Origin: an uncultured Gallionellaceae bacterium
Lineage (GTDB): Bacteria; Pseudomonadota; Gammaproteobacteria; Burkholderiales; Gallionellaceae
NCBI GenBank assembly: GCA_964532405.1
Contig: CAZHIC010000007.1
Location: 6,721-70,720 of the forward strand
DNA length: 64,000 bases
Direction of reading: 5' to 3'
A model generated the notes under the pieces. It did no database searches and had not been told where the DNA came from. It worked only from the letters and a program-made list of their open reading frames with translations. Shown here piece by piece: positions 20,938 through 36,623 of the stretch (position 1 is the stretch's first letter; every line of letters starts with the position of its first letter). The translations under genes were made by a program, and so were the position numbers.

Positions 20938-21534
20938 TTATTTTTTAGCTTCGTCAGCCGGAAATTGTGTGATTTTTTGACCGTGTTCGAGAATGAAGGA
21001 AACTTCAGTTTTGCCGCTATTGTTAAGGCTGGTGTTGATGTCCACGCATATTATGTTATCACCCAAATCTGGGTTGTTTTTCGAGGTTCTCCAATAAAAT
21101 TTTCCAACTGCGGTACCTGGCATTCGTTTGTCGTCGTCGCACCCGCTAGGGTTTTCACCGGACAGTAAGGTGGTTGCTCTTCTGAAAATGCAATAGTTGC
21201 CACGTTTTTGGATGCCTACTTCCACAAAAGATGTCTCGTCATTGTTTGGGTTGTTGCTACTTACTACCACTTGAATTTCAGGGTCTTGTAACCGATAGCG
21301 TTCTACTCTCCCAGTAGTCTCGTTTTTCTTTTCGATAAACTTAGGGCGCACCGTTACTTGTGGTGGTGAATCAAACTGAAACGGTAATGTCTCGAAATAA
21401 CTTCTGAGGGCGTTATCACAATCAGAAAAATCCTTTTTATGGGACTGAGCTAGAACTTGGGTTACTACCATTGACTCTGCCATAGAAAGCCCGGAGTAAA
21501 ACAGAGCAATAATTGCGATGATTAACTTATTCAT
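20938..21534 (-). CDS. Secreted protein of unknown function (198 aa)
   Basis: It has a signal peptide (MNKLIIAIIALFYSGLSMA-ES), about 42% GC and its own terminator. I recognise no motif. Confidence 0.6.
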   Translation of the reverse strand: MNKLIIAIIALFYSGLSMAESMVVTQVLAQSHKKDFSDCDNALRSYFETLPFQFDSPPQVTVRPKFIEKKNETTGRVERYRLQDPEIQVVVSSNNPNNDETSFVEVGIQKRGNYCIFRRATTLLSGENPSGCDDDKRMPGTAVGKFYWRTSKNNPDLGDNIICVDINTSLNNSGKTEVSFILEHGQKITQFPADEAKK

Positions 21535-21556
21535 GCAGGTTTCCTTTTGAGTGTGG

Positions 21557-22237
21557 TTACAGATGTAGGGTTTTTAACTGAACGCTAAGAACTCCAGCCC
21601 AGATGATCCACATCAGATACATGTAAATACCCATCAAGGGTAGTGCAATAAGAGTGAGTACACAGCGATTCATTTGGAACTGTTGCAGTATGGTGGCAGC
21701 GCCATGCACTAGATTCCAAGTTAGCAACCCGATGCCGAATATAACGAGAATTAAAGCGAGGAAGTCATTGCACGATGGGCACAAAGATAAATTGCCCTGT
21801 AAGTGACGCGTGGCAGGTACGGCAGCCACAATGGAGGCGCAAATTATGACGTTTCGGAGGTTGTTGAAAACAAAATTGATTAACTCGTCTTGTGGAAGCT
21901 TTTTCGGGGTGGGAGACGATGATTCTGTTTCGGATTGTTTATTCGAGGGCACAGTGGCTTCCTTCTGACGTGGGCTTGGTGGGTCAATAGAATTGGCAAA
22001 ACACGGGCACTGTAAGTCAGGGGGGGGGGGGGGTATGTCAAGCGCAGTGGTGCGTTTATGCGAGGCTTGCGACGGGGTGTAATGGGTGGTTTGGCGGCTA
22101 GCCAATTTTGCTTTGGCTCGAACTGGGTCGGCATGATAAACTCGCCCGCTGTTTTTAAAGCCTTTTAGGAAGCCGCCACAGATGGAACAATTCGCTAAAG
22201 AAACACTGTCCGTTAGTCTCGAAGAGGAGATGCGCAA
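21557..22237 (-). CDS. Three-TM membrane protein; start uncertain (ATG 22237 inside gyrA, or GTG 21952)
   Basis: The C-terminal half has three hydrophobic helices: [26 protein letters not shown] and [28 protein letters not shown] 21952 has an AGGAAG Shine-Dalgarno 6 nt upstream and would give 131 aa. The long form reads through the C14 tract as PPPPP. Confidence 0.5.
22020..22033. repeat. G14 (C14 on the coding strand) homopolymer
   Basis: Counted directly: g22020 plus 13 g at 22021-22033. Confidence 0.95.
22043..22132. repeat. Direct repeat copy B, distal part (the proximal 25 nt lie at 21449-21473)
   Basis: See copy A. The two parts of copy B are separated by 569 bp. Confidence 0.85.
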
Positions 22238-24783: not shown

Positions 24784-25968
24784 ATGCTGACTGAAGCACA
24801 ATTGGCCGAGTTGTTGTCCGATCTGGAATCGGATCGTGTCGAGCGCACGATTTCCGTTTCCGATACGGATAAATATTGCCAGGCGGTTTGTGCGTTTGCC
24901 AATGACTTGCCCAATCATCGCCAGCCGGGTTATTTGTTGATTGGTGTTGGGGATGACGGAAGTCTGTCTGGCTTGAGTGTGACGGATCAGCTATTGCAAA
25001 ATCTTGGCGCGATACGCGCTAACGGCAATGTATTGCCGCAGCCCGTGATGAGTGTGGCGAGGTTTAAGTTGCAGGGTGGCGAGGTTGCCGTTGTGGAGGT
25101 GCTGCCATCCGACATGCCTCCAGTGCGTTATAAAGGGCGCGTATATATTCGCGTCGGCCCACGCAAGGCAATTGCCAATGAGCAGGAAGAGCGGGTGTTA
25201 ACCGAGAGGCGTGTTGCACGGGCGCATACTTTTGATGTGCTGCCTTTTCCCGAAGCGAAACTTGCGGATTTGTCTATTCGCTTGTTTGGTGAATACCGCG
25301 CTCAGGTGGTTGCACCCGAAGTGATTGAGGCGAACCACCGAACAGTCGAAGAGCAATTGGCTTCCCTGCGGTTGTTTGATCTGTCAAAGCAATGTCCAAC
25401 GACTTCCGGCATTCTTTTGTTCGGCAATAATCCGCGATATTTTTTGCCCGGTGCATACGTGCAATTTTTGCGCTTCCCCGGTACGAAGATGACTGACATG
25501 CCGGTAGACCAAGCGGAATTTTCCGGGGATATGCGTACCGTGCTTGACGGTTTGCGCGATAAATTTCGAGCCTGCAACCAAGTGGGAATGAAGCCGGGAA
25601 AAAATTTTAAGGATCAGTTGTTGCCCGATTATCCCGAATGGTCGGTGCGCGAGTTGCTGCATAACGCTGTGATACACCGCGATTATCAGTCTAATACTCC
25701 TATTCGTTTTTATTGGTTTGCAGACCGTATCGAGATACAAAGTCCCGGCGGCTTATACGGAGAGGTTACGCCGGAAACCATTATGAGCCGGAACAGTTAC
25801 CGTAATCCGGTTATGGCTGAAGCGTTGAAGGCCATGGGCTATGTAAACCGTTTCGGTTTTGGTATTCAGCAAACGCAAAATTTATTGGAAGAAAACGGCA
25901 ATCCCCCAGCGGAATTTAGTTTTGAAGACCGGGTTGTCGCGGTGACGATTCGACGGGGAACGCGATGA
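24784..25968 (+). CDS. AlbA_2 (Schlafen-type) plus HATPase_c_4 domain protein
   Basis: The N-terminus ESDRVERTIS...AVCAFANDLPNHRQPGYLLIGVGDDGSLSGL fits the AlbA_2 pattern. The C-terminus RELLHNAVIHRDYQSNTPIRFYWFADRIEIQSPGGL fits the HATPase_c_4 pattern. The ATG is 5 nt after the gyrA TAA. Confidence 0.75.
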   Translation: MLTEAQLAELLSDLESDRVERTISVSDTDKYCQAVCAFANDLPNHRQPGYLLIGVGDDGSLSGLSVTDQLLQNLGAIRANGNVLPQPVMSVARFKLQGGEVAVVEVLPSDMPPVRYKGRVYIRVGPRKAIANEQEERVLTERRVARAHTFDVLPFPEAKLADLSIRLFGEYRAQVVAPEVIEANHRTVEEQLASLRLFDLSKQCPTTSGILLFGNNPRYFLPGAYVQFLRFPGTKMTDMPVDQAEFSGDMRTVLDGLRDKFRACNQVGMKPGKNFKDQLLPDYPEWSVRELLHNAVIHRDYQSNTPIRFYWFADRIEIQSPGGLYGEVTPETIMSRNSYRNPVMAEALKAMGYVNRFGFGIQQTQNLLEENGNPPAEFSFEDRVVAVTIRRGTR

Positions 25969-26957
25969 GAACCATTGCCTTCTTTAATAACAAAGGCGGT
26001 GTCGGGAAGACCTCCTTGGTGTATCACTTGGCATGGATGTTCGCAGACCGTGGAATTGAAACGCTGGCTGTAGATCTTGATCCGCAGGCGAATCTAACCT
26101 CCATGTTTCTCAATGAGGAGCGACTGGAAGAGTTGTGGCCGGATGGTGAGCATCCAGATACTGTTTATGGGGCTATCCGCCCGATTTTGCGAGGTGTAGG
26201 TGATATTGCCGAGCCGCACATTGAAAAAATTACGGATATGCTGGGGTTGATTCCTGGCGATCTTGGTTTATCCCGTTTTGAAGACAAGCTCTCGGATGCT
26301 TGGCCTCGTTGTCAGTTGGGCGATGAATCTGCTTTTCGTACTATGACCGCTTTTCATCGTCTTGTGCAACATGGTGCAGATCGAGGTGCGGAGTTGGTGT
26401 TGATTGATGTCGGCCCAAATTTAGGGGCGATTAACCGATCTGCGTTGATTGCCTCTGATCAAGTTTGTTTGCCTCTGGCACCGGATTTATTTTCTTTGCA
26501 AGGCCTCAAGAATCTTGGGCCAACACTGAATGAGTGGCGTGAAGTTTGGAAAGAGCTATTGCAGAAAGCACCTGCTGATGTCCCGATGCCCAAAGGAGCG
26601 ATGCAGCCAGTAGGCTATATTGTTATGCAGCATGGGATTCGAGACAGTCGTCCGGTAAAAGCCTACCAACGTTGGTTAGACAAGATTCCTCAAGTTTATC
26701 GTGGGTCTGTGTTGAACGAGGCAGTTACAGGTAACATGCCTGCACTAGCCGATGACCCATATATGCTTGCACTGTTGAAGCATTATCGCAGCCTGATGCC
26801 GATGGCGATGGAAGCAAACAAGCCGATTTTTTTTCTGAAGTCCGCTGATGGTGCTATTGGGTCGCATCAGGAGGCAGTTGCAAGTTGTTATAAAGATTTT
26901 GAGAAATTGGCGGCAAAAATAGCCGCTAACGCAGGTATTGCATTCCCGAATAAATAA
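25965..26957 (+). CDS. ParA/MinD-like P-loop ATPase (330 aa)
   Basis: It has the deviant Walker A FFNNKGGVGKTS, then AVDLDPQANLT and VLIDVGPNLG. ATGA overlap with the upstream gene. Confidence 0.8.
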   Translation: MRTIAFFNNKGGVGKTSLVYHLAWMFADRGIETLAVDLDPQANLTSMFLNEERLEELWPDGEHPDTVYGAIRPILRGVGDIAEPHIEKITDMLGLIPGDLGLSRFEDKLSDAWPRCQLGDESAFRTMTAFHRLVQHGADRGAELVLIDVGPNLGAINRSALIASDQVCLPLAPDLFSLQGLKNLGPTLNEWREVWKELLQKAPADVPMPKGAMQPVGYIVMQHGIRDSRPVKAYQRWLDKIPQVYRGSVLNEAVTGNMPALADDPYMLALLKHYRSLMPMAMEANKPIFFLKSADGAIGSHQEAVASCYKDFEKLAAKIAANAGIAFPNK

Positions 26958-32556: not shown

Positions 32557-33426
32557 ATGCAGCCCGCCTTTCAAAAGGTCGTCATTTTTGGCGCTGGACT
32601 GATCGGCGGGTCGTTCGCATTAGCGTTGCGCAAGGTTGGAGCGGTTTCTGAAGTCGTGGGCTTCGGGCGCAGTTCAGCGACGCTTGAACAAGCCAAACAA
32701 CTCGGTATTCTCGACCGCATCGGCAGCGATGCGGCGCGCGAAGTATGCGATGCCGATCTGGTGTTGCTCGCTACGCCCGTGGCACAGATGGCCGAATTGT
32801 TCGCTCGCATCGCACCGCATCTCGGCGCGCACACGCTGGTCACCGACGGCGGCAGCACCAAGGGCGATGTGGTGGCTGCGGCGCGAGCTAATCTGGGCGA
32901 CAAGATCGCGCAGTTTGTTCCCGCTCATCCCATTGCCGGTGCCGAAAAAAGCGGCGCTGCCGCCGCACTGGCCGATCTGTATCAAGGCAAGAAAGTGGTA
33001 CTCACTCCGCTGACGGAAAATTCACAAGATGCCGTGGCGTGTGTGCGCAAAGCGTGGGAGTTGTGCGGTGCGACGGTGAGCGAGCTGTCGCCGCAGCAGC
33101 ACGATGAGGTGTTCGCGGCGGTGAGTCATTTGCCGCATCTGTTGTCGTTCGCGCTGGTGCATGACTTGGCACAACGCGACAACCGCGATCAGTTGCTTTC
33201 TTTCGCCGCCAGCGGCTTTCGCGACTTCACCCGTATCGCTGCCAGCAGCCCTGAGATGTGGCGCGACATCTGTATGGCTAACCGCGATGCGCTGATGAGC
33301 GAGTTGCAACAATACGCCGCTGAGCTTTACGTTCTACACCAAGTGCTGGAAAGCAACGACGCGGCCAAGCTGGAAGAGATATTCAGTCTGGCGCGGGAAG
33401 TGCGCAGTGCTTGGACTCCGCAATAA
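32557..33426 (+). CDS. tyrA: Prephenate/arogenate dehydrogenase
   Basis: Contains VVIFGAGLIGGSFALAL (Rossmann fold), HPIAG and AASGFRDFTRIA. Confidence 0.9.
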   Translation: MQPAFQKVVIFGAGLIGGSFALALRKVGAVSEVVGFGRSSATLEQAKQLGILDRIGSDAAREVCDADLVLLATPVAQMAELFARIAPHLGAHTLVTDGGSTKGDVVAAARANLGDKIAQFVPAHPIAGAEKSGAAAALADLYQGKKVVLTPLTENSQDAVACVRKAWELCGATVSELSPQQHDEVFAAVSHLPHLLSFALVHDLAQRDNRDQLLSFAASGFRDFTRIAASSPEMWRDICMANRDALMSELQQYAAELYVLHQVLESNDAAKLEEIFSLAREVRSAWTPQ

Positions 33427-33440
33427 CTTACGAGAGCGAT

Positions 33441-34247
33441 ATGTCCATACAGGTTCTTGATACAACAGCTTGGAGAGAGTTTCGTGGCTCACCTGACATC
33501 AAAGGTTTGAATAAGACAACACATTTGGCAAAAATTGCAGATGCGAGTGGCAAGTTGCATGATTGCTATGTCAAGCTGTTGGAACCAAATACTCCTGCAC
33601 TTCTATGTGAGGCAATTGGCTGGCTCATTGCGCGTGCATCTGGTGTTGCGTGTTCGCCTTTTGCATGCATTGTGTTCATACCGTTGGATGAGCTACGAAA
33701 GAATATGAAATTGCCTGAATGGTTAGATAGGTATGATGTTTACCCAGCCTGGTGTTCAGAAGTGATTCGAGGGAAAACGGTCATCCAAGTTCATAAATGG
33801 TTTTTGTTGGCGGCCAGCAAAAAATGTTTAAGGAGCAAAGATGCTAGAGCAATGGCGGCAATGGATGTATGGGTTGACAACAGGGATCGAAACTATGGGA
33901 ACGTTGTTCGTGTAAGTAGTGGTAATTACGTTTCGATTGACCATGAAACAGTGTTGCATGATTTGTTGTGGATACCAGTAGGTAAACACTTTGCGAGAAG
34001 AAGTTTGGTTGATATGGCCGTCCAGCATTTGTCGCAAGATGATCGTGATCAATTTTTAGTGGATATGGCTACTACCGCAGAACTTCACCAAAATGGGTTC
34101 AATGTGTCGAAGAAGCACGTTGTGGAGATCATTGAAAAAATCGTTCATCCGTCAAAAATCCAGCAGTTTGTTCCGTTGGTATGTGACTTTCTGGAGTCAC
34201 GTGCAAAGCCGGGATGGCTAGCCAATGAGATAGGAGTGATCGTATGA
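33441..34247 (+). CDS. HipA / PI3-4-kinase-like phosphotransferase-fold protein (268 aa)
   Basis: It shows an ordered kinase-like pattern: CYVKLLE (Lys), LLCEAIGWL (Glu), MDVWVDNRDRNYGNVV (D-x4-N catalytic loop) and VSIDHETV (metal-binding Asp). GC is about 40%. Confidence 0.6.
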   Translation: MSIQVLDTTAWREFRGSPDIKGLNKTTHLAKIADASGKLHDCYVKLLEPNTPALLCEAIGWLIARASGVACSPFACIVFIPLDELRKNMKLPEWLDRYDVYPAWCSEVIRGKTVIQVHKWFLLAASKKCLRSKDARAMAAMDVWVDNRDRNYGNVVRVSSGNYVSIDHETVLHDLLWIPVGKHFARRSLVDMAVQHLSQDDRDQFLVDMATTAELHQNGFNVSKKHVVEIIEKIVHPSKIQQFVPLVCDFLESRAKPGWLANEIGVIV

Positions 34248-35161
34248 GTACATCATTATTCACTGATGAAAATGGTTCATTTGCACACCTTTTTAAACAG
34301 GCCGTTTCATTAGGCTCTCCCGCATTTGCCGGGGCTTGGAGCGTGATTGAATTGCAGCCGGATATTTTTGTTCCTCAATGGTTTAATGTCGGTGTGGTCG
34401 TACAGTCTGCCAATGATCGACTTCATTTTAAAATTCTGGATGAATTTAAGAAATTCGATTGTGTTTATGGGGAGCAACTTCCGCAAAGTGCATTGCGTGA
34501 GTTGATGGTTTTTGCTGAAGCTGCATTGCGTCAAGCGGCAAAAGACAAAATCCCATTAATAAATGTTGATTTTGCAACCGCCAATTTAAGATTGTCTGCG
34601 CCACAATTTACCTCTGGCGAGGATCGTGAAGTTACGGTTGAGCGCCTATTTGAAGAGATTGTTGTAATGATTCCTCGCGCAAAAGAGAAGGAATCTGAAT
34701 TTGTATCTATCGATACTGTTACAGCAAGAAAAATGGTTAATGAGAAGCTGAAAGAGATTGCAAAATTAGACTATGAGCGAATAGTGTTACCGAACTCTAC
34801 GGGTATGCTCTACGAAGATGGCGATACGAAACACTACCTAGATTTTAATCTGCGCACTAGCCGCGCTTGCGGAAGTGTGGTCTCGGCAGTTTACAAAACA
34901 ATCCAGCATGTTGAATACAATCTTCTCAAATCTAGTCGCGATCTTACGACATATGCAAGGCTTAAGAATTTGAGTGATATTGGTTTATTTTTGCTTCTTC
35001 CAGATCCCCAGAAAATGGAGCCAAAAGAATTCAAGCATGTTGATGAGTTGATCGCTGAGCAGTCTTGGAAATTGGAGCGGGATGGGTTTAGGGTGGTCAG
35101 CGGTGATGCGGAAGAGATGCTGGCAAGAGAGATATACGATTGGGCTGTTCCCTCGCTTTGA
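34244..35161 (+). CDS. DUF3037-like protein (305 aa)
   Basis: The N-terminal WSVIELQPDIFVPQWFNVGVVVQSANDRLHFKILDEF resembles my memory of the DUF3037 core. ATGA overlap with the kinase-like gene. GC is about 42%. Confidence 0.5.
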   Translation: MSTSLFTDENGSFAHLFKQAVSLGSPAFAGAWSVIELQPDIFVPQWFNVGVVVQSANDRLHFKILDEFKKFDCVYGEQLPQSALRELMVFAEAALRQAAKDKIPLINVDFATANLRLSAPQFTSGEDREVTVERLFEEIVVMIPRAKEKESEFVSIDTVTARKMVNEKLKEIAKLDYERIVLPNSTGMLYEDGDTKHYLDFNLRTSRACGSVVSAVYKTIQHVEYNLLKSSRDLTTYARLKNLSDIGLFLLLPDPQKMEPKEFKHVDELIAEQSWKLERDGFRVVSGDAEEMLAREIYDWAVPSL

Positions 35162-35207
35162 TATTCCCGATGTTCATAATTATTGATCTACTAAGTATTC
35201 ATTCTGA

Positions 35208-36623
35208 ATGATGGTACGCACTGAATTTATCGGCCTACCTCCTCTGCTGTCCGCGCACGGCATCGTGCGTTTGCCAGGCTCCAAGAGCATTTCCAATCGT
35301 GTGCTGTTGCTGTCTGCGCTGGCGCAGGGTACGACGACTGTGCGCGACCTGCTGCACTCGGACGATACTGAACGCATGCTGGAAGGTTTGCGCACGCTGG
35401 GTGTGCAGGTTGAATCGCTCGGCGATAACTCCTATCGCGTAACAGGTTGCGGCGGTGACTTCCCCGTCAAACAAGCCAAGCTGTTCCTTGGCAATGCAGG
35501 TACGGCATTTCGCCCGCTGACGGCTGCGCTGGCTTTGGCTGGCGGCAGTTACGAGTTGTCCGGTGTGGCGCGTATGCACGAGCGTCCTATCGGCGATTTG
35601 GTGGATGCGTTGCGCCAGCTCGGTGCGGACATCCGCTATCTGGGCAATGAAGGCTTTCCGCCGTTGCGGATAGAGATACCTTCTGATGAAGCAACTAGCC
35701 ATTCGACTAGGCCACCACAAAACGGTAGCCAAGTCGCTGGTTATCCCCAGCCCTCTCCCGTCAAGGGAGAGGGAGTGGTCAGCGTGAAAGGCAACGTGTC
35801 GAGCCAATTTTTGACGGCACTGCTGATGGCGTTGCCGTTGCTGAATCGCACGGTGAAGGTTTCAGTGCTGGGCGAGTTGATCTCCAAGCCTTATATCGAA
35901 ATCACGCTGGCGATGATGGCGCGCTTTGGTGTTGTTGTGCAGCGTGACGGTTGGCGCAGCTTCACGGTTGTGGCAGGTAGCCGCTATGTGTCGCCGCAAG
36001 AGATATATGTCGAGGGCGATGCGTCTTCTGCTTCGTATTTTCTGGCGGCAGGCGCTATTGGCGGCGGGCCAGTGCGCGTGGAGGGCGTGGGAAAAAGCAG
36101 TGTGCAGGGAGATATACGTTTTGCCGAAGCGCTGCAAAAAATGGGCGCAACGATCACGATGGGGGATAACTGGATCGAAGCGCGTGCGCCTGCGAGCGGT
36201 AAGCTCAAGGCCATCGATCTCGACTGCAACCACATCCCCGATGCGGCGATGACGCTGGCCGTAGCGGCGCTGTTCGCCGACGGCGCGACCACACTGCGCA
36301 ACATCGCCAGCTGGCGCGTGAAGGAAACCGACCGTATCGCGGCGATGGCGACGGAGTTGCGCAAAACCGGAGCAACGGTAGAAGAGGGGGCGGATTTCAT
36401 TCGCGTTACGCCGCCCCCATCCTCCTTGGCTTCCGCCCTTCACCCTTCACCCTTTACTCTTCACGGTTCCGTCGACACTTACGACGATCACCGCATGGCG
36501 ATGTGTTTCTCGCTGGTCGCGTTCGGCGGTGCAGGCGTGCGTATCAACGATCCGAAATGTGTGGCCAAAACTTTTCCGGATTATTTCGAGTGCTTGTTTT
36601 CTGTTGTCTCTGGTGGCCGTTGA
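35208..36623 (+). CDS. aroA: 3-phosphoshikimate 1-carboxyvinyltransferase (EPSP synthase) carrying two in-frame insertions
   Basis: Contains [62 protein letters not shown] and [11 protein letters not shown]. At 471 aa it is longer than typical AroA. Confidence 0.95.
35751..35773. repeat. REP hairpin inside the aroA coding sequence
   Basis: CCCTCTCCC-GTCAA-GGGAGAGGG, a perfect 9-bp stem. It encodes PSPVKGEG in the aroA frame. Confidence 0.85.

What the first reader, a model, noticed from the sequence alone, without database searches (positions are those of the whole stretch)
33441..35161. Top candidate: low-GC kinase-like plus DUF3037-like pair inserted between tyrA and aroA
tyrA stops at 33426 and aroA starts at 35208. 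Between them are two same-strand ORFs joined by an ATGA overlap (34244-34247). Sampled 60-nt lines are 40-42% GC, against about 60% in tyrA.

ORF1 (268 aa from ATG 33441) shows the ordered landmarks of a HipA / PI3-4-kinase-like phosphotransferase:
- Lys in CYVKLLE
- Glu in LLCEAIGWL
- catalytic loop MDVWVDNRDRNYGNVV (D-x4-N)
- metal-binding VSIDHETV

The ORF2 (305 aa) N-terminus, WSVIELQPDIFVPQWFNVGVVVQS...LHFKILDEF, resembles DUF3037. From memory, that family is annotated next to HipA-family kinases, and I know of no experimentally assigned function for it. The remaining 200 or so residues are unassignable by eye. There is no integrase, tRNA or flanking repeat. A small kinase with an uncharacterised partner riding on an essential operon fits a toxin-antitoxin or abortive-infection style module whose mechanism is undescribed.
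Basis: partly seen in the sequence, partly recalled or inferred. Interest (0 to 1): 0.8.

Follow-up and report, generated by a model that had tools for sequence, protein, structure and literature searches.

The report
Divergent HipAD kinase defence pair
Two foreign genes wedged between tyrA and aroA are a very divergent copy of a recently described two-gene anti-phage/toxin-antitoxin system (HipA-like kinase plus DUF3037 partner, called HipAD, DS-6 or PDC-M66), so the find is real but the kind of system is already known.

Summary
Two overlapping same-strand ORFs (33441-34247 and 34244-35161, ATGA overlap) at GC 0.43 sit between tyrA and aroA (GC about 0.59). In 35 of 47 informative close relatives, tyrA meets aroA across 6-63 nt (mode 14), and none of 80 relatives carries the pair. 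It is therefore a horizontal insertion.

ORF1 is a HipA_2-family (PF20613) kinase. It has a confident kinase fold and an invariant Lys/Glu/D-R-x-x-x-N/I-D-H set. Its D149 aligns with D139 of the validated DS-6A kinase, whose mutation abolishes defence.

ORF2 gives no direct DUF3037 hit. A deep profile links it end to end to the DS-6B (DUF3037 + DUF1829-like) family: hhalign 97%, E 5e-11. In addition, 42 of 111 deeper relatives hit PF11236 and 41 of 111 hit PADLOC PDC-M66B.

The kinase-then-partner order held in all 35 loci first examined. The pair also appears in defence islands, IS-flanked units, small ColE1 plasmids and a temperate phage.

This pairing is already published as PDC-M66, DS-6 and HipAD, with the kinase as toxin/effector and the DUF3037 protein as neutraliser. 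The window therefore holds a divergent new member that current HMMs miss. One side finding is that the tyrA-aroA junction recurrently hosts other TA cassettes.

The parts
32557..33426 (+). tyrA (prephenate dehydrogenase), the left flank of the insertion
   Evidence: Pfam PDH_N 2e-37 and PDH_C 2e-29. It is followed directly by aroA in 35 of 47 informative relatives.
33427..33440 (+). 14-nt spacer between the tyrA stop and the ORF1 start, the same length as the usual ancestral tyrA-aroA spacer
   Evidence: Junction comparison with empty sites L036-L049. There is no room for a promoter, and none is predicted here.
33441..34247 (+). ORF1: HipA_2-family (PI3/4-kinase-like) protein kinase, 268 aa, the presumed toxin/effector
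   Evidence: - PF20613 E 4e-5, below the gathering cut-off. 29 of 34 sequences in alignment A2 (ORF1, 32 relatives and DS-6A) hit PF20613.
- AF2 model pLDDT 92.3. Foldseek top 50 hits are all kinases.
- 22% identity over 220 aa to DS-6A, with motifs in register.
- dN/dS 0.12 against the L006 copy.
33864..33902 (+). Catalytic loop D142-x-W144 ... D149-R150-N-Y-G153-N154. D149 (33885-33887) is the equivalent of DS-6A D139.
   Evidence: These residues are invariant in the family. The DS-6 D139A mutant loses defence (PMC13092281).
33573..33611 (+). ATP-binding Lys K45 (33573-33575) and helix-C Glu E57 (33609-33611)
   Evidence: Both are invariant in alignment A5. E57 aligns with DS-6A E55.
33936..33944 (+). 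I166-D167-H168 metal-binding motif (DFG equivalent)
   Evidence: D167 and H168 are invariant and align with DS-6A D164/H165.
34232..34247 (+). AGGAG ribosome-binding site (34232-34236) and the ATGA stop/start overlap (34244-34247), which couple translation of ORF2 to ORF1
   Evidence: Read from the sequence. The same 4-nt overlap is seen in DS-6, plasmid L127 and phage L128.
34244..35161 (+). ORF2: divergent DUF3037-family partner protein (DS-6B-like), 305 aa, the presumed neutraliser/sensor
   Evidence: - No direct Pfam, PADLOC or NCBIfam hit.
- Deep family: 42 of 111 hit PF11236 and 41 of 111 hit PDC-M66B.
- hhalign against the DS-6B family gives 97.1%, E 5e-11, end to end.
- dN/dS 0.09.
34334..34684 (+). 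ORF2 N-terminal DUF3037-like domain (about residues 31-147)
   Evidence: hhalign aligns ORF2 32-147 with DS-6B 7-132, which is its DUF3037 domain. The AF2 model shows beta-beta-beta-alpha-alpha-beta-beta-alpha.
34715..35155 (+). ORF2 C-terminal restriction-endonuclease-like (alpha-beta-beta-beta-alpha-beta) domain (about residues 158-304), with no conserved catalytic acidic residues
   Evidence: - AF2 model.
- Weak Foldseek hits to XPF/ERCC4, the R2 restriction-like endonuclease domain and PD-(D/E)XK proteins.
- It aligns with the C-terminal domain of DS-6B, which the DS-6 authors' HHpred table labels DUF1829.
- Only S214 is at least 90% conserved in this domain across the deep family.
35162..35207 (+). 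46-nt AT-rich spacer between the ORF2 stop and the aroA start, the right edge of the insertion
   Evidence: No terminator is predicted on the + strand.
35208..36623 (+). aroA (EPSP synthase), the right flank
   Evidence: Pfam EPSP_synthase 2e-122.

Best explanation
The 1.78-kb insert is a horizontally acquired, divergent member of the HipA_2-kinase / DUF3037 two-gene system (PADLOC candidate PDC-M66, DS-6, HipAD).

What each gene most likely does:
- ORF1 is an active small HipA-like protein kinase. It acts as the growth-arresting toxin/effector.
- ORF2 is translationally coupled to ORF1 through the ATGA overlap. It is a two-domain DUF3037 + nuclease-fold protein that binds and neutralises the kinase. 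It probably also senses the trigger or binds DNA.
- On phage infection or loss of the partner, the kinase is freed and phosphorylates an essential host target, stopping growth in the manner of abortive infection. By analogy with HipA/HipT the target would be an aminoacyl-tRNA synthetase.

Here the cassette has no promoter region of its own. It lies exactly in the ancestral 14-nt tyrA-aroA spacer, so it is most likely transcribed by read-through of the aromatic amino-acid operon.

Shown here:
- Homology of both genes to the validated system.
- Conservation of the catalytic residues.
- Strict gene linkage.
- Insertion status.
- Purifying selection.

Taken from the literature on homologs: kinase toxicity, neutralisation by the DUF3037 protein, and the need for the catalytic Asp in defence.

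Inferred only: the target, the trigger, and co-transcription with the operon.
For: Homology of ORF1 to the validated kinase:
- ORF1 hits PF20613 at E 4e-5, and 29 of 34 sequences in alignment A2 hit it.
- DS-6A is a canonical PF20613 member at 9.7e-77.
- ORF1 and DS-6A align over 220 aa. D149 matches D139, D167/H168 match D164/H165, and E57 matches E55.
- The AF2 model has pLDDT 92 and gives kinase-only Foldseek hits in the top 50.

Homology of ORF2 to the validated partner:
- A profile search found 283 relatives.
- 42 of 111 hit PF11236 and 41 of 111 hit PDC-M66B.
- hhalign against the DS-6B family gives 97.1%, E 5.4e-11 over 244 columns covering both domains.

Architecture:
- The order is kinase then partner with a 4-nt overlap, as in DS-6, plasmid L127 and phage L128 next to cI.
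- The kinase lies directly upstream of the partner in all 35 loci first examined.

Mobility and defence context:
- Empty tyrA-aroA sites exist in relatives, and 0 of 80 carry the pair.
- GC is low.
- Relatives sit in defence islands in Paraburkholderia, Burkholderia and Cupriavidus.
- Xenophilus has IS-bracketed triplicate copies.

Functional constraint: dN/dS is about 0.1.

Published function:
- The DS-6 D139A mutant loses defence, and AF3 predicts A-B and B-DNA contacts (PMC13092281).
- Deleting HipA abolishes defence, and deleting the DUF3037 gene is toxic (PMC12548924).
Against: - Neither window protein passes a curated threshold. ORF1 scores 23.4 bits against a cut-off of 27, and its PADLOC PDC-M66A hit is only E 0.018. 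ORF2 has no hit at all.
- The narrow ORF2 family profile links to the DS-6B family only weakly, at E 0.012.
- ORF2 and DS-6B share no BLASTP similarity.
- There is no experimental datum for this clade.
- The primary HipAD paper (Brenes & Laub 2025) could not be read.
- A complex prediction for ORF1-ORF2 was not possible.
- No defence genes directly flank the pair in this window.
- With no promoter region of its own, the usual TA autoregulation may not apply here.
- The same site is occupied in a relative at 73% identity. The pair's dN is similar to that of the flanking genes. This could mean long residence and possible domestication.
Confidence: 0.75

Rival explanations
1. The pair is a purely selfish addiction (toxin-antitoxin) cassette with no anti-phage role. 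It persists in the tyrA-aroA spacer because loss of the labile neutraliser frees the kinase, and because this spacer is one of the few places where an insertion does not harm the essential operon.
For: - Other classical TA cassettes (ParE, Phd+PIN, DUF4160+DUF2442) occupy the same junction in relatives.
- Distant homologous pairs are the main cargo of 3.4-6.4 kb ColE1-type plasmids, where an addiction role is plausible.
- Deleting the DUF3037 gene is toxic in a homologous system (PMC12548924).
Against: - Homologous pairs gave measurable phage protection that depended on the kinase (PMC13092281 and PMC12548924).
- Relatives sit in defence islands and next to cI in a temperate phage.
- Addiction and defence are not mutually exclusive.
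Confidence: 0.15
2. The kinase pair has been domesticated as a regulator of aromatic amino-acid metabolism. For example, it might phosphorylate TyrA, AroA or a tRNA synthetase in response to amino-acid status. That would explain why it is kept inside this operon in two lineages whose copies of the pair are 72-73% identical.
For: - The pair occupies the same site in L006.
- Its dN is similar to that of tyrA and aroA, and dN/dS is about 0.1.
- It has no promoter of its own, so expression is probably tied to the operon.
Against: - 0 of 80 close tyrA relatives carry it, and most have tyrA abutting aroA.
- Every other homolog examined lies in an unrelated context.
- The persistently foreign GC3 (0.38-0.42 against 0.65-0.77) argues against long amelioration.
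- The same junction hosts unrelated TA cargo in relatives.
Confidence: 0.06
3. The pair is an inactive, decaying remnant of a mobile cassette with no current function.
For: It has no promoter of its own, no mobility genes and no flanking repeats. Its scores against curated HMMs are weak.
Against: - Both ORFs are intact and identical or nearly identical in five independent assemblies.
- All catalytic residues are invariant.
- dN/dS is about 0.1 against the L006 copy.
- The ribosome-binding site and ATGA coupling are preserved.
Confidence: 0.03

Closest known systems
DS-6 / HipAD (E. coli; DS-6A WP_000389051.1 + DS-6B WP_000210934.1), which is PADLOC candidate PDC-M66
   Same: - The operon has two genes: a small (about 250-270 aa) HipA_2 kinase first, then a partner of about 275-305 aa, with a 4-nt overlap.
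- The kinase catalytic residues are in register (D149 matches D139).
- The partner is homologous end to end: a DUF3037 N-domain plus a nuclease-fold C-domain.
- It travels on mobile elements and in defence islands.
   Different: - Identity is only about 22% for the kinase, and there is no BLASTP similarity for the partner.
- The window proteins fail the Pfam PF11236, PADLOC PDC-M66A/B and PF20613 gathering thresholds.
- ORF2 has an extra N-terminal stretch of about 30 aa.
- The clade is mainly betaproteobacterial.
- The window copy is embedded, without a promoter, in an essential biosynthetic operon rather than in a prophage or island.
HipA/DUF3037 pair associated with Retron-Sda1 (PMC12548924)
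   Same: It is a stand-alone kinase toxin plus DUF3037 neutraliser. The authors report a strong HipA-like/DUF3037 genomic association. In Burkholderia multivorans the window-type pair also sits next to an RVT_1 reverse transcriptase plus a cold-shock-domain gene.
   Different: No reverse transcriptase or ncRNA lies near the window copy.
Canonical HipBA (E. coli K-12) and HipBST toxin-antitoxin systems
   Same: The toxin is a HipA-superfamily (Pfam clan PKinase, PI3/4-kinase-like) kinase held in check by a co-encoded protein. The expected outcome is growth arrest.
   Different: - There is no upstream HTH antitoxin HipB and no HipS.
- The antitoxin gene is downstream rather than upstream.
- ORF1 lacks the HipA N-terminal subdomains. 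It is 268 aa, and its only Pfam match is to HipA_2.
- The partner is an unrelated DUF3037/nuclease-fold protein.
- The kinase target is unknown.

Membership tests
HipAD / DS-6 / PDC-M66 two-gene system | The operon order is HipA_2-type kinase first, then the DUF3037 protein, with the two genes overlapping or tightly coupled. | tested here: met
   The ATGA overlap is at 34244-34247. The order is the same in all 35 loci first examined. DS-6 has the same 4-nt overlap, as do L127 and L128.
HipAD / DS-6 / PDC-M66 two-gene system | Detection by the PADLOC models PDC-M66A and PDC-M66B | tested here: not met
   - ORF1 hits PDC-M66A at E 0.018 over only 40 aa, and ORF2 has no hit.
- DS-6A and DS-6B hit at 6e-15 and 3.8e-16.
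- 41 of 111 deeper ORF2 relatives hit PDC-M66B. 4 of 34 sequences in the ORF1 alignment A2 hit PDC-M66A; A2 includes DS-6A itself, which gives the best E-value.
- This is a failure of model sensitivity, not of homology.
HipAD / DS-6 / PDC-M66 two-gene system | The partner protein is homologous to DS-6B over its full length. | tested here: met
   hhalign of A3 against A4 gives 97.1% probability, E 5.4e-11. ORF2 31-305 aligns with DS-6B 6-275.
HipAD / DS-6 / PDC-M66 two-gene system | The kinase catalytic Asp required for defence (DS-6A D139) is present. | tested here: met
   D139 aligns with ORF1 D149, which is invariant in all 34 aligned sequences. Whether this copy needs it for function is not testable here.
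HipAD / DS-6 / PDC-M66 two-gene system | The kinase is toxic alone and is neutralised by the DUF3037 protein, and the pair protects against phage. | not testable with these tools
   This is known only for homologs (PMC12548924 and PMC13092281).
Pfam HipA_2 (PF20613) kinase family | An HMM match at or above the gathering score (27 bits) | tested here: not met
   ORF1 scores 23.4 bits, E 4.1e-5, covering 160 of 240 model positions. 29 of 34 sequences in alignment A2 match at E<=0.01, and several relatives have precomputed PF20613 hits. ORF1 is therefore a borderline, divergent member.
Pfam HipA_2 (PF20613) kinase family | A protein-kinase-like fold with Lys, Glu, D-R-x-x-x-N and I-D-H motifs | tested here: met
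   The AF2 model has pLDDT 92.3. Foldseek gives 227 PDB matches at E<=1e-3, and the top 50 are all kinases. K45, E57, D149, R150, N154, D167 and H168 are invariant.
Pfam DUF3037 (PF11236) | An HMM match to PF11236 | tested here: not met
   ORF2 and all 40 members of its close family give no hit, even at E<=1.
Pfam DUF3037 (PF11236) | Homology to bona fide DUF3037 domains at profile level | tested here: met
   42 of 111 deeper relatives hit PF11236, best 7e-9. ORF2 32-147 aligns with DS-6B 7-132.
Canonical HipBA type II TA | An upstream HTH antitoxin HipB and a full-length HipA with N-terminal subdomains | tested here: not met
   The upstream gene is tyrA, 14 nt away. ORF1 is 268 aa and has no Pfam match other than HipA_2 and chance-level hits.

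The most novel reading that the evidence does not exclude
The tyrA-aroA intergenic spacer of this betaproteobacterial lineage may be a dedicated exchange point. Promoterless toxin-antitoxin or defence cassettes (HipAD-like, ParE, Phd-PIN, DUF4160/DUF2442 and others) would be swapped there inside an essential biosynthetic operon, without any recognisable recombinase, att site or target duplication. Their expression, and therefore the toxin/antitoxin balance, would be tied to transcription of the aromatic amino-acid operon. That would couple abortive-infection or dormancy decisions to amino-acid status.
Probability: 0.15. Interest if true: 0.55.

Novelty: new member of a known kind. Interest (0 to 1): 0.3.

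Why it matters
**A detection gap.** A whole clade of the HipAD/PDC-M66 defence system, mainly betaproteobacterial, is invisible to current tools.
- The ORF2-type family has 227 clusters at 90% identity.
- The window pair and the 40 close ORF2-family members tested fail the Pfam PF11236 model, and the window pair fails the PADLOC v2 models. Censuses of this system will therefore undercount it.
- Alignments A3 and A5 could seed better HMMs.

**Defence cargo outside islands.** Defence or TA cassettes can sit as bare, promoterless inserts between essential housekeeping genes, far from defence islands. Island-based discovery misses such cases.

The kind of system itself is not new. Its kinase target and its trigger remain unknown for the whole family.

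Tried and rejected
1. **Direct family scans of ORF2.** Pfam, NCBIfam and PADLOC gave nothing, both for ORF2 and for its 40 close relatives. BLASTP and the narrow-profile hhalign against DS-6B were negative or weak. Only the deep profile from the 1.84-billion-protein representative search bridged the gap.
2. **Sequence search of solved structures.** No relative was found for either family.
3. **Foldseek of the ORF2 model against the PDB.** Only weak local hits to nuclease folds appeared, best E 0.04. Two unnamed BFVD proteins matched full length, but their sequences could not be retrieved.
4. **Search for an insertion mechanism.** I found no target-site duplication, no terminal inverted repeats, no integrase and no nearby tRNA. 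The 46-nt right spacer shows no integron-like GTTRRRY core by eye. The mechanism is unresolved.
5. **Promoter and terminator scan.** Counts were at chance level and nothing lay at the junctions.
6. **Rfam.** The only match in the window is the tRNA.
7. **Organism name.** The cluster look-up returned no names. The window is a MAG contig, GCA_947085955.1.
8. **Primary HipAD paper.** Brenes & Laub 2025 is not held.
11. **Canonical HipBA/HipBST reading.** Rejected: there is no HipB or HipS, and the gene order is the opposite.
Full report
**1. Observation**

- tyrA is 32557-33426 and aroA is 35208-36623. Both have strong Pfam matches.
- ORF1 runs from ATG 33441 to 34247 (268 aa). ORF2 is 34244-35161 (305 aa).
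- The two ORFs share the ATGA at 34244-34247, and an AGGAG lies 7 nt before the ORF2 start.
- GC in 300-nt windows falls to 0.39-0.45 across the pair, against 0.56-0.63 on both sides.
- The 34-35 kb bin is the lowest of the 64 one-kb bins in the window.
- GC3 is 0.42 and 0.38, against 0.65-0.77 in hisC, the DAHP synthase gene, tyrA and aroA.
- The only tRNA is at 62 kb. No meaningful direct or inverted repeats bracket the insert.

**2. It is an insertion**

I collected 80 metagenomic loci whose tyrA is 75-93% identical to the window's. None encodes an ORF1 or ORF2 homolog.
- In 47 loci aroA lies downstream. In 35 of these the tyrA-aroA gap is 6-63 nt, most often 14.
- The window insert sits exactly in that spacer. 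14 nt remain between the tyrA stop and the ORF1 ATG, and a 46-nt AT-rich stretch precedes aroA.
- The window's own organism is a MAG, GCA_947085955.1. Four independent read assemblies of it carry the identical arrangement.
- One relative (L006) has the pair at the same site. Its pair is 72-73% identical and its tyrA 80% identical.
- Between these two copies dN/dS is 0.12 for ORF1 and 0.09 for ORF2, similar to tyrA (0.10) and aroA (0.17). dS is near saturation. Both genes are therefore under purifying selection.

**3. What ORF1 is**

- Pfam gives HipA_2 (PF20613) at E 4e-5. The score of 23.4 bits is below the 27-bit gathering cut-off.
- 29 of the 34 sequences in alignment A2 (ORF1, 32 relatives and DS-6A) hit the model.
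- The AlphaFold2 model is confident, with pLDDT 92.3 and pTM 0.90.
- Foldseek against the PDB returns 227 matches at E<=1e-3, and the top 50 are all kinases. The best query-normalised TM-scores (0.46-0.49) are to VPS34/PI3K catalytic domains.
- K45, E57, D142, W144, D149, R150, G153, N154, D167 and H168 are invariant in 33 family members.

**4. What ORF2 is**

Direct scans fail.
- ORF2 has no Pfam, NCBIfam or PADLOC hit, and none of its 40 close relatives has one even at E<=1.
- BLASTP against the validated DUF3037 protein DS-6B finds nothing.

A deeper profile makes the link.
- A profile of the close family (A1), searched against 1.84 billion representative proteins, found 283 relatives. Most are full length at about 285-300 aa.
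- Of 111 of these, 42 hit PF11236 (best 7e-9) and 41 hit PADLOC PDC-M66B.
- The deep alignment (A3) compared with an alignment of 30 DS-6B homologs, all annotated PF11236 (A4), gives hhalign probability 97.1% and E 5.4e-11 over 244 columns. ORF2 31-305 aligns with DS-6B 6-275.
- ORF2 is therefore a full-length but very divergent homolog of DS-6B.

The AF2 model (pLDDT 80.9) has two domains.
- The N-terminal domain (about residues 28-141) is the DUF3037-like part.
- The C-terminal domain (158-304) has an alpha-beta-beta-beta-alpha-beta core. It gives weak hits to XPF/ERCC4, the restriction-like endonuclease domain of R2, and PD-(D/E)XK proteins.
- This fits the DUF1829 label that the DS-6 authors' HHpred table gives to the C-terminus of DS-6B.
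- No acidic catalytic residues are conserved across the deep family. The domain is more likely a binding module than an active nuclease. This last point is inference.

**5. Linkage and contexts**

In all 35 loci first examined, the kinase gene lies directly upstream of the partner gene. Outside the window lineage the contexts are unrelated to tyrA and aroA.
- Paraburkholderia atlantica: an island with HSP70+AAA genes, DUF499/DUF1156/SNF2 genes and an integrase.
- Burkholderia multivorans: a variable region near dnaA-dnaN-gyrB. It holds an RVT_1 reverse transcriptase plus a cold-shock-domain gene, Type ISP and Mrr restriction domains, and IS elements.
- Cupriavidus taiwanensis: next to BrxR and the DUF499/DUF1156/SNF2 genes.
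- One locus lies between the PFK and DeaD genes. Another lies in a prophage-like stretch.
- Xenophilus sp.: three copies that match at 99.7-100% over a unit of about 5 kb, bracketed by copies of a 1.3-kb IS-like repeat.
- More distant homologous pairs, again with a 4-nt overlap, are the main cargo of 3.4-6.4 kb ColE1-type plasmids. One also sits next to cI in Pseudomonas phage vB_PaeS-D14P. The upstream genes there are confirmed as homologous kinases.
- The pair is lower in GC than its flanks in nearly all loci.

**6. Comparison with what is known**

The HipA-like kinase + DUF3037 pair is already described.
- PADLOC lists it as candidate PDC-M66.
- The Retron-Sda1 study (PMC12548924) found that deleting the kinase abolishes defence and deleting the DUF3037 gene is toxic. 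The authors concluded that it is a stand-alone system with the kinase as toxin and DUF3037 as neutraliser.
- DefensePredictor (PMC13092281) validated DS-6, renamed HipAD after Brenes & Laub 2025. Its D139A kinase mutant loses defence, and AF3 predicts A-B and B-DNA contacts.

I extracted the DS-6 sequences from that paper's supplement and compared them directly.
- DS-6A is a canonical PF20613 and PDC-M66A member. DS-6B hits PDC-M66B at full length.
- ORF1 aligns with DS-6A over 220 aa at 22% identity.
- D149 falls in the same column as D139.
- Gene order and the 4-nt overlap are identical.

The window pair is therefore a divergent member of this system. It is not canonical HipBA or HipBST, because it has no HipB or HipS and the gene order is the opposite.

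**7. Mechanism**

Most likely, ORF2 binds and holds the ORF1 kinase inactive. Phage infection, or loss of ORF2, releases the kinase. The kinase then phosphorylates an essential target and arrests growth.

The basis for each part is as follows.
- Shown here: homology, the conserved catalytic apparatus, translational coupling and purifying selection.
- Taken from homologs: toxicity, neutralisation and dependence on the catalytic Asp.
- Inferred: the target (an aminoacyl-tRNA synthetase, by analogy with HipA/HipT), the trigger, and read-through transcription. No promoter or terminator signal exceeds chance, and the 14-nt upstream spacer leaves no room for a promoter.

**8. Side finding**

Seven of the 47 informative relatives carry other cargo of 0.9-2.5 kb at the same junction. 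In the examples measured it is low in GC (0.44-0.46 against 0.55-0.57 in the flanks). The cargo includes:
- a ParE toxin;
- a Phd antitoxin with a PIN toxin;
- DUF4160 with DUF2442;
- a retropepsin-like protease;
- a TPR protein;
- an integrase fragment.

The junction looks like a recurrent landing site for small TA-type cassettes. The mechanism is unknown. A further 20 relatives have different genes after tyrA, including an ArnT-like operon in seven. I did not resolve those.

**9. Verdict**

The claim that the system is undescribed is not. It is a new, highly divergent member of a known kind. Its practical value is for improving detection models, and the hotspot is a modest curiosity.

Noticed in passing
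L093:928-2553; L097:5858-7525; L102:5855-8330 (same as L103); L106:2134-3486; L108:985-2417; L112:5855-6737: In close relatives the same tyrA-aroA spacer holds other small inserts. The examples measured are low in GC (0.44-0.46 against 0.55-0.57). They include a ParE toxin, Phd + PIN, DUF4160 + DUF2442 with a TPR protein and a Uma2-like ORF (identified by eye only), and a retropepsin-like protease with two unknown ORFs. L112 looks like a decayed version of the L102 insert. The junction behaves as a recurrent landing site for TA-type cassettes, and the mechanism is unknown.
   Followed up: partly
window 24784-26957: Three genes lie between gyrA and serC in a lower-GC stretch (0.48-0.51). They encode a Schlafen/AlbA_2 + HATPase_c_4 protein (394 aa), a ParA/AAA_31 ATPase (237 aa) and a 73-aa ORF. 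The first protein hits PADLOC pAgo-associated models at 4e-19. This is possibly a second inserted cassette next to housekeeping genes.
   Followed up: partly
window 20938-22237 (- strand): Two ORFs (198 and 226 aa) just upstream of gyrA have no Pfam or PADLOC match. They lie in the second-lowest GC bin of the window (0.441).
   Followed up: no
L116-L119: 11609-13001 (Burkholderia multivorans): An RVT_1 reverse transcriptase (396 aa) and a cold-shock-domain gene lie about 680 nt downstream of the kinase/partner pair, in a variable region beside gyrB-dnaN-dnaA. This echoes the published association of HipA/DUF3037 pairs with retrons. Whether the gap encodes a retron ncRNA was not checked.
   Followed up: no
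L024, L025, L026 (Xenophilus sp. Marseille-Q4582); L027; L034: One genome carries three copies of the pair that match at 99.7-100% over a unit of about 5.15 kb, interspersed with several copies of a 1.3-kb IS-like repeat. The same unit is 99.7-100% identical in a Burkholderiaceae MAG and in a bin labelled Anaerolineae. That points to very recent transfer or to mis-binning.
   Followed up: partly
L127 (Klebsiella plasmid NZ_AP022141.1, 3852 bp) and hits H4-H8; L128:3063-4816 (Pseudomonas phage vB_PaeS-D14P): Distant homologs of the pair (24-27% identity for the partner) are the main cargo of tiny ColE1-type plasmids in Klebsiella, Raoultella, Salmonella and E. coli. A pair also sits immediately after cI in a temperate Pseudomonas phage, where both genes are annotated only as hypothetical.
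   Followed up: partly
L108:1026-2247: At the tyrA-aroA junction, a tyrosine-recombinase fragment (219 aa, - strand) is flanked by inverted copies of a roughly 190-nt segment. The same 62-aa ORF is read on both strands. This may be a remnant of the element that delivers cargo to this site.
   Followed up: no
window 35208-36623 (aroA, about residues 155-187): The EPSP synthase carries a low-complexity insertion (…[32 protein letters not shown]…) that splits the Pfam match into two stretches. Its N-terminus (MMVRTEF…) also differs from that of relatives with empty sites (MTQHEF…).
   Followed up: no
L006:224-905: In the relative that shares the insert, a retropepsin-like aspartic protease gene and a 90-aa ORF lie directly upstream of tyrA. 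A similar protease is part of the L093 cargo at the tyrA-aroA junction.
   Followed up: no
L064, L082, L084, L087, L088, L095, L098 (downstream of tyrA): In seven relatives tyrA is followed by an ArnT-like glycosyltransferase (about 550 aa). In most of them a small membrane protein and a DegT-type aminotransferase follow as well, and aroA is absent. The 5-kb flanks cannot show whether this is a larger insertion or a different gene order.
   Followed up: no
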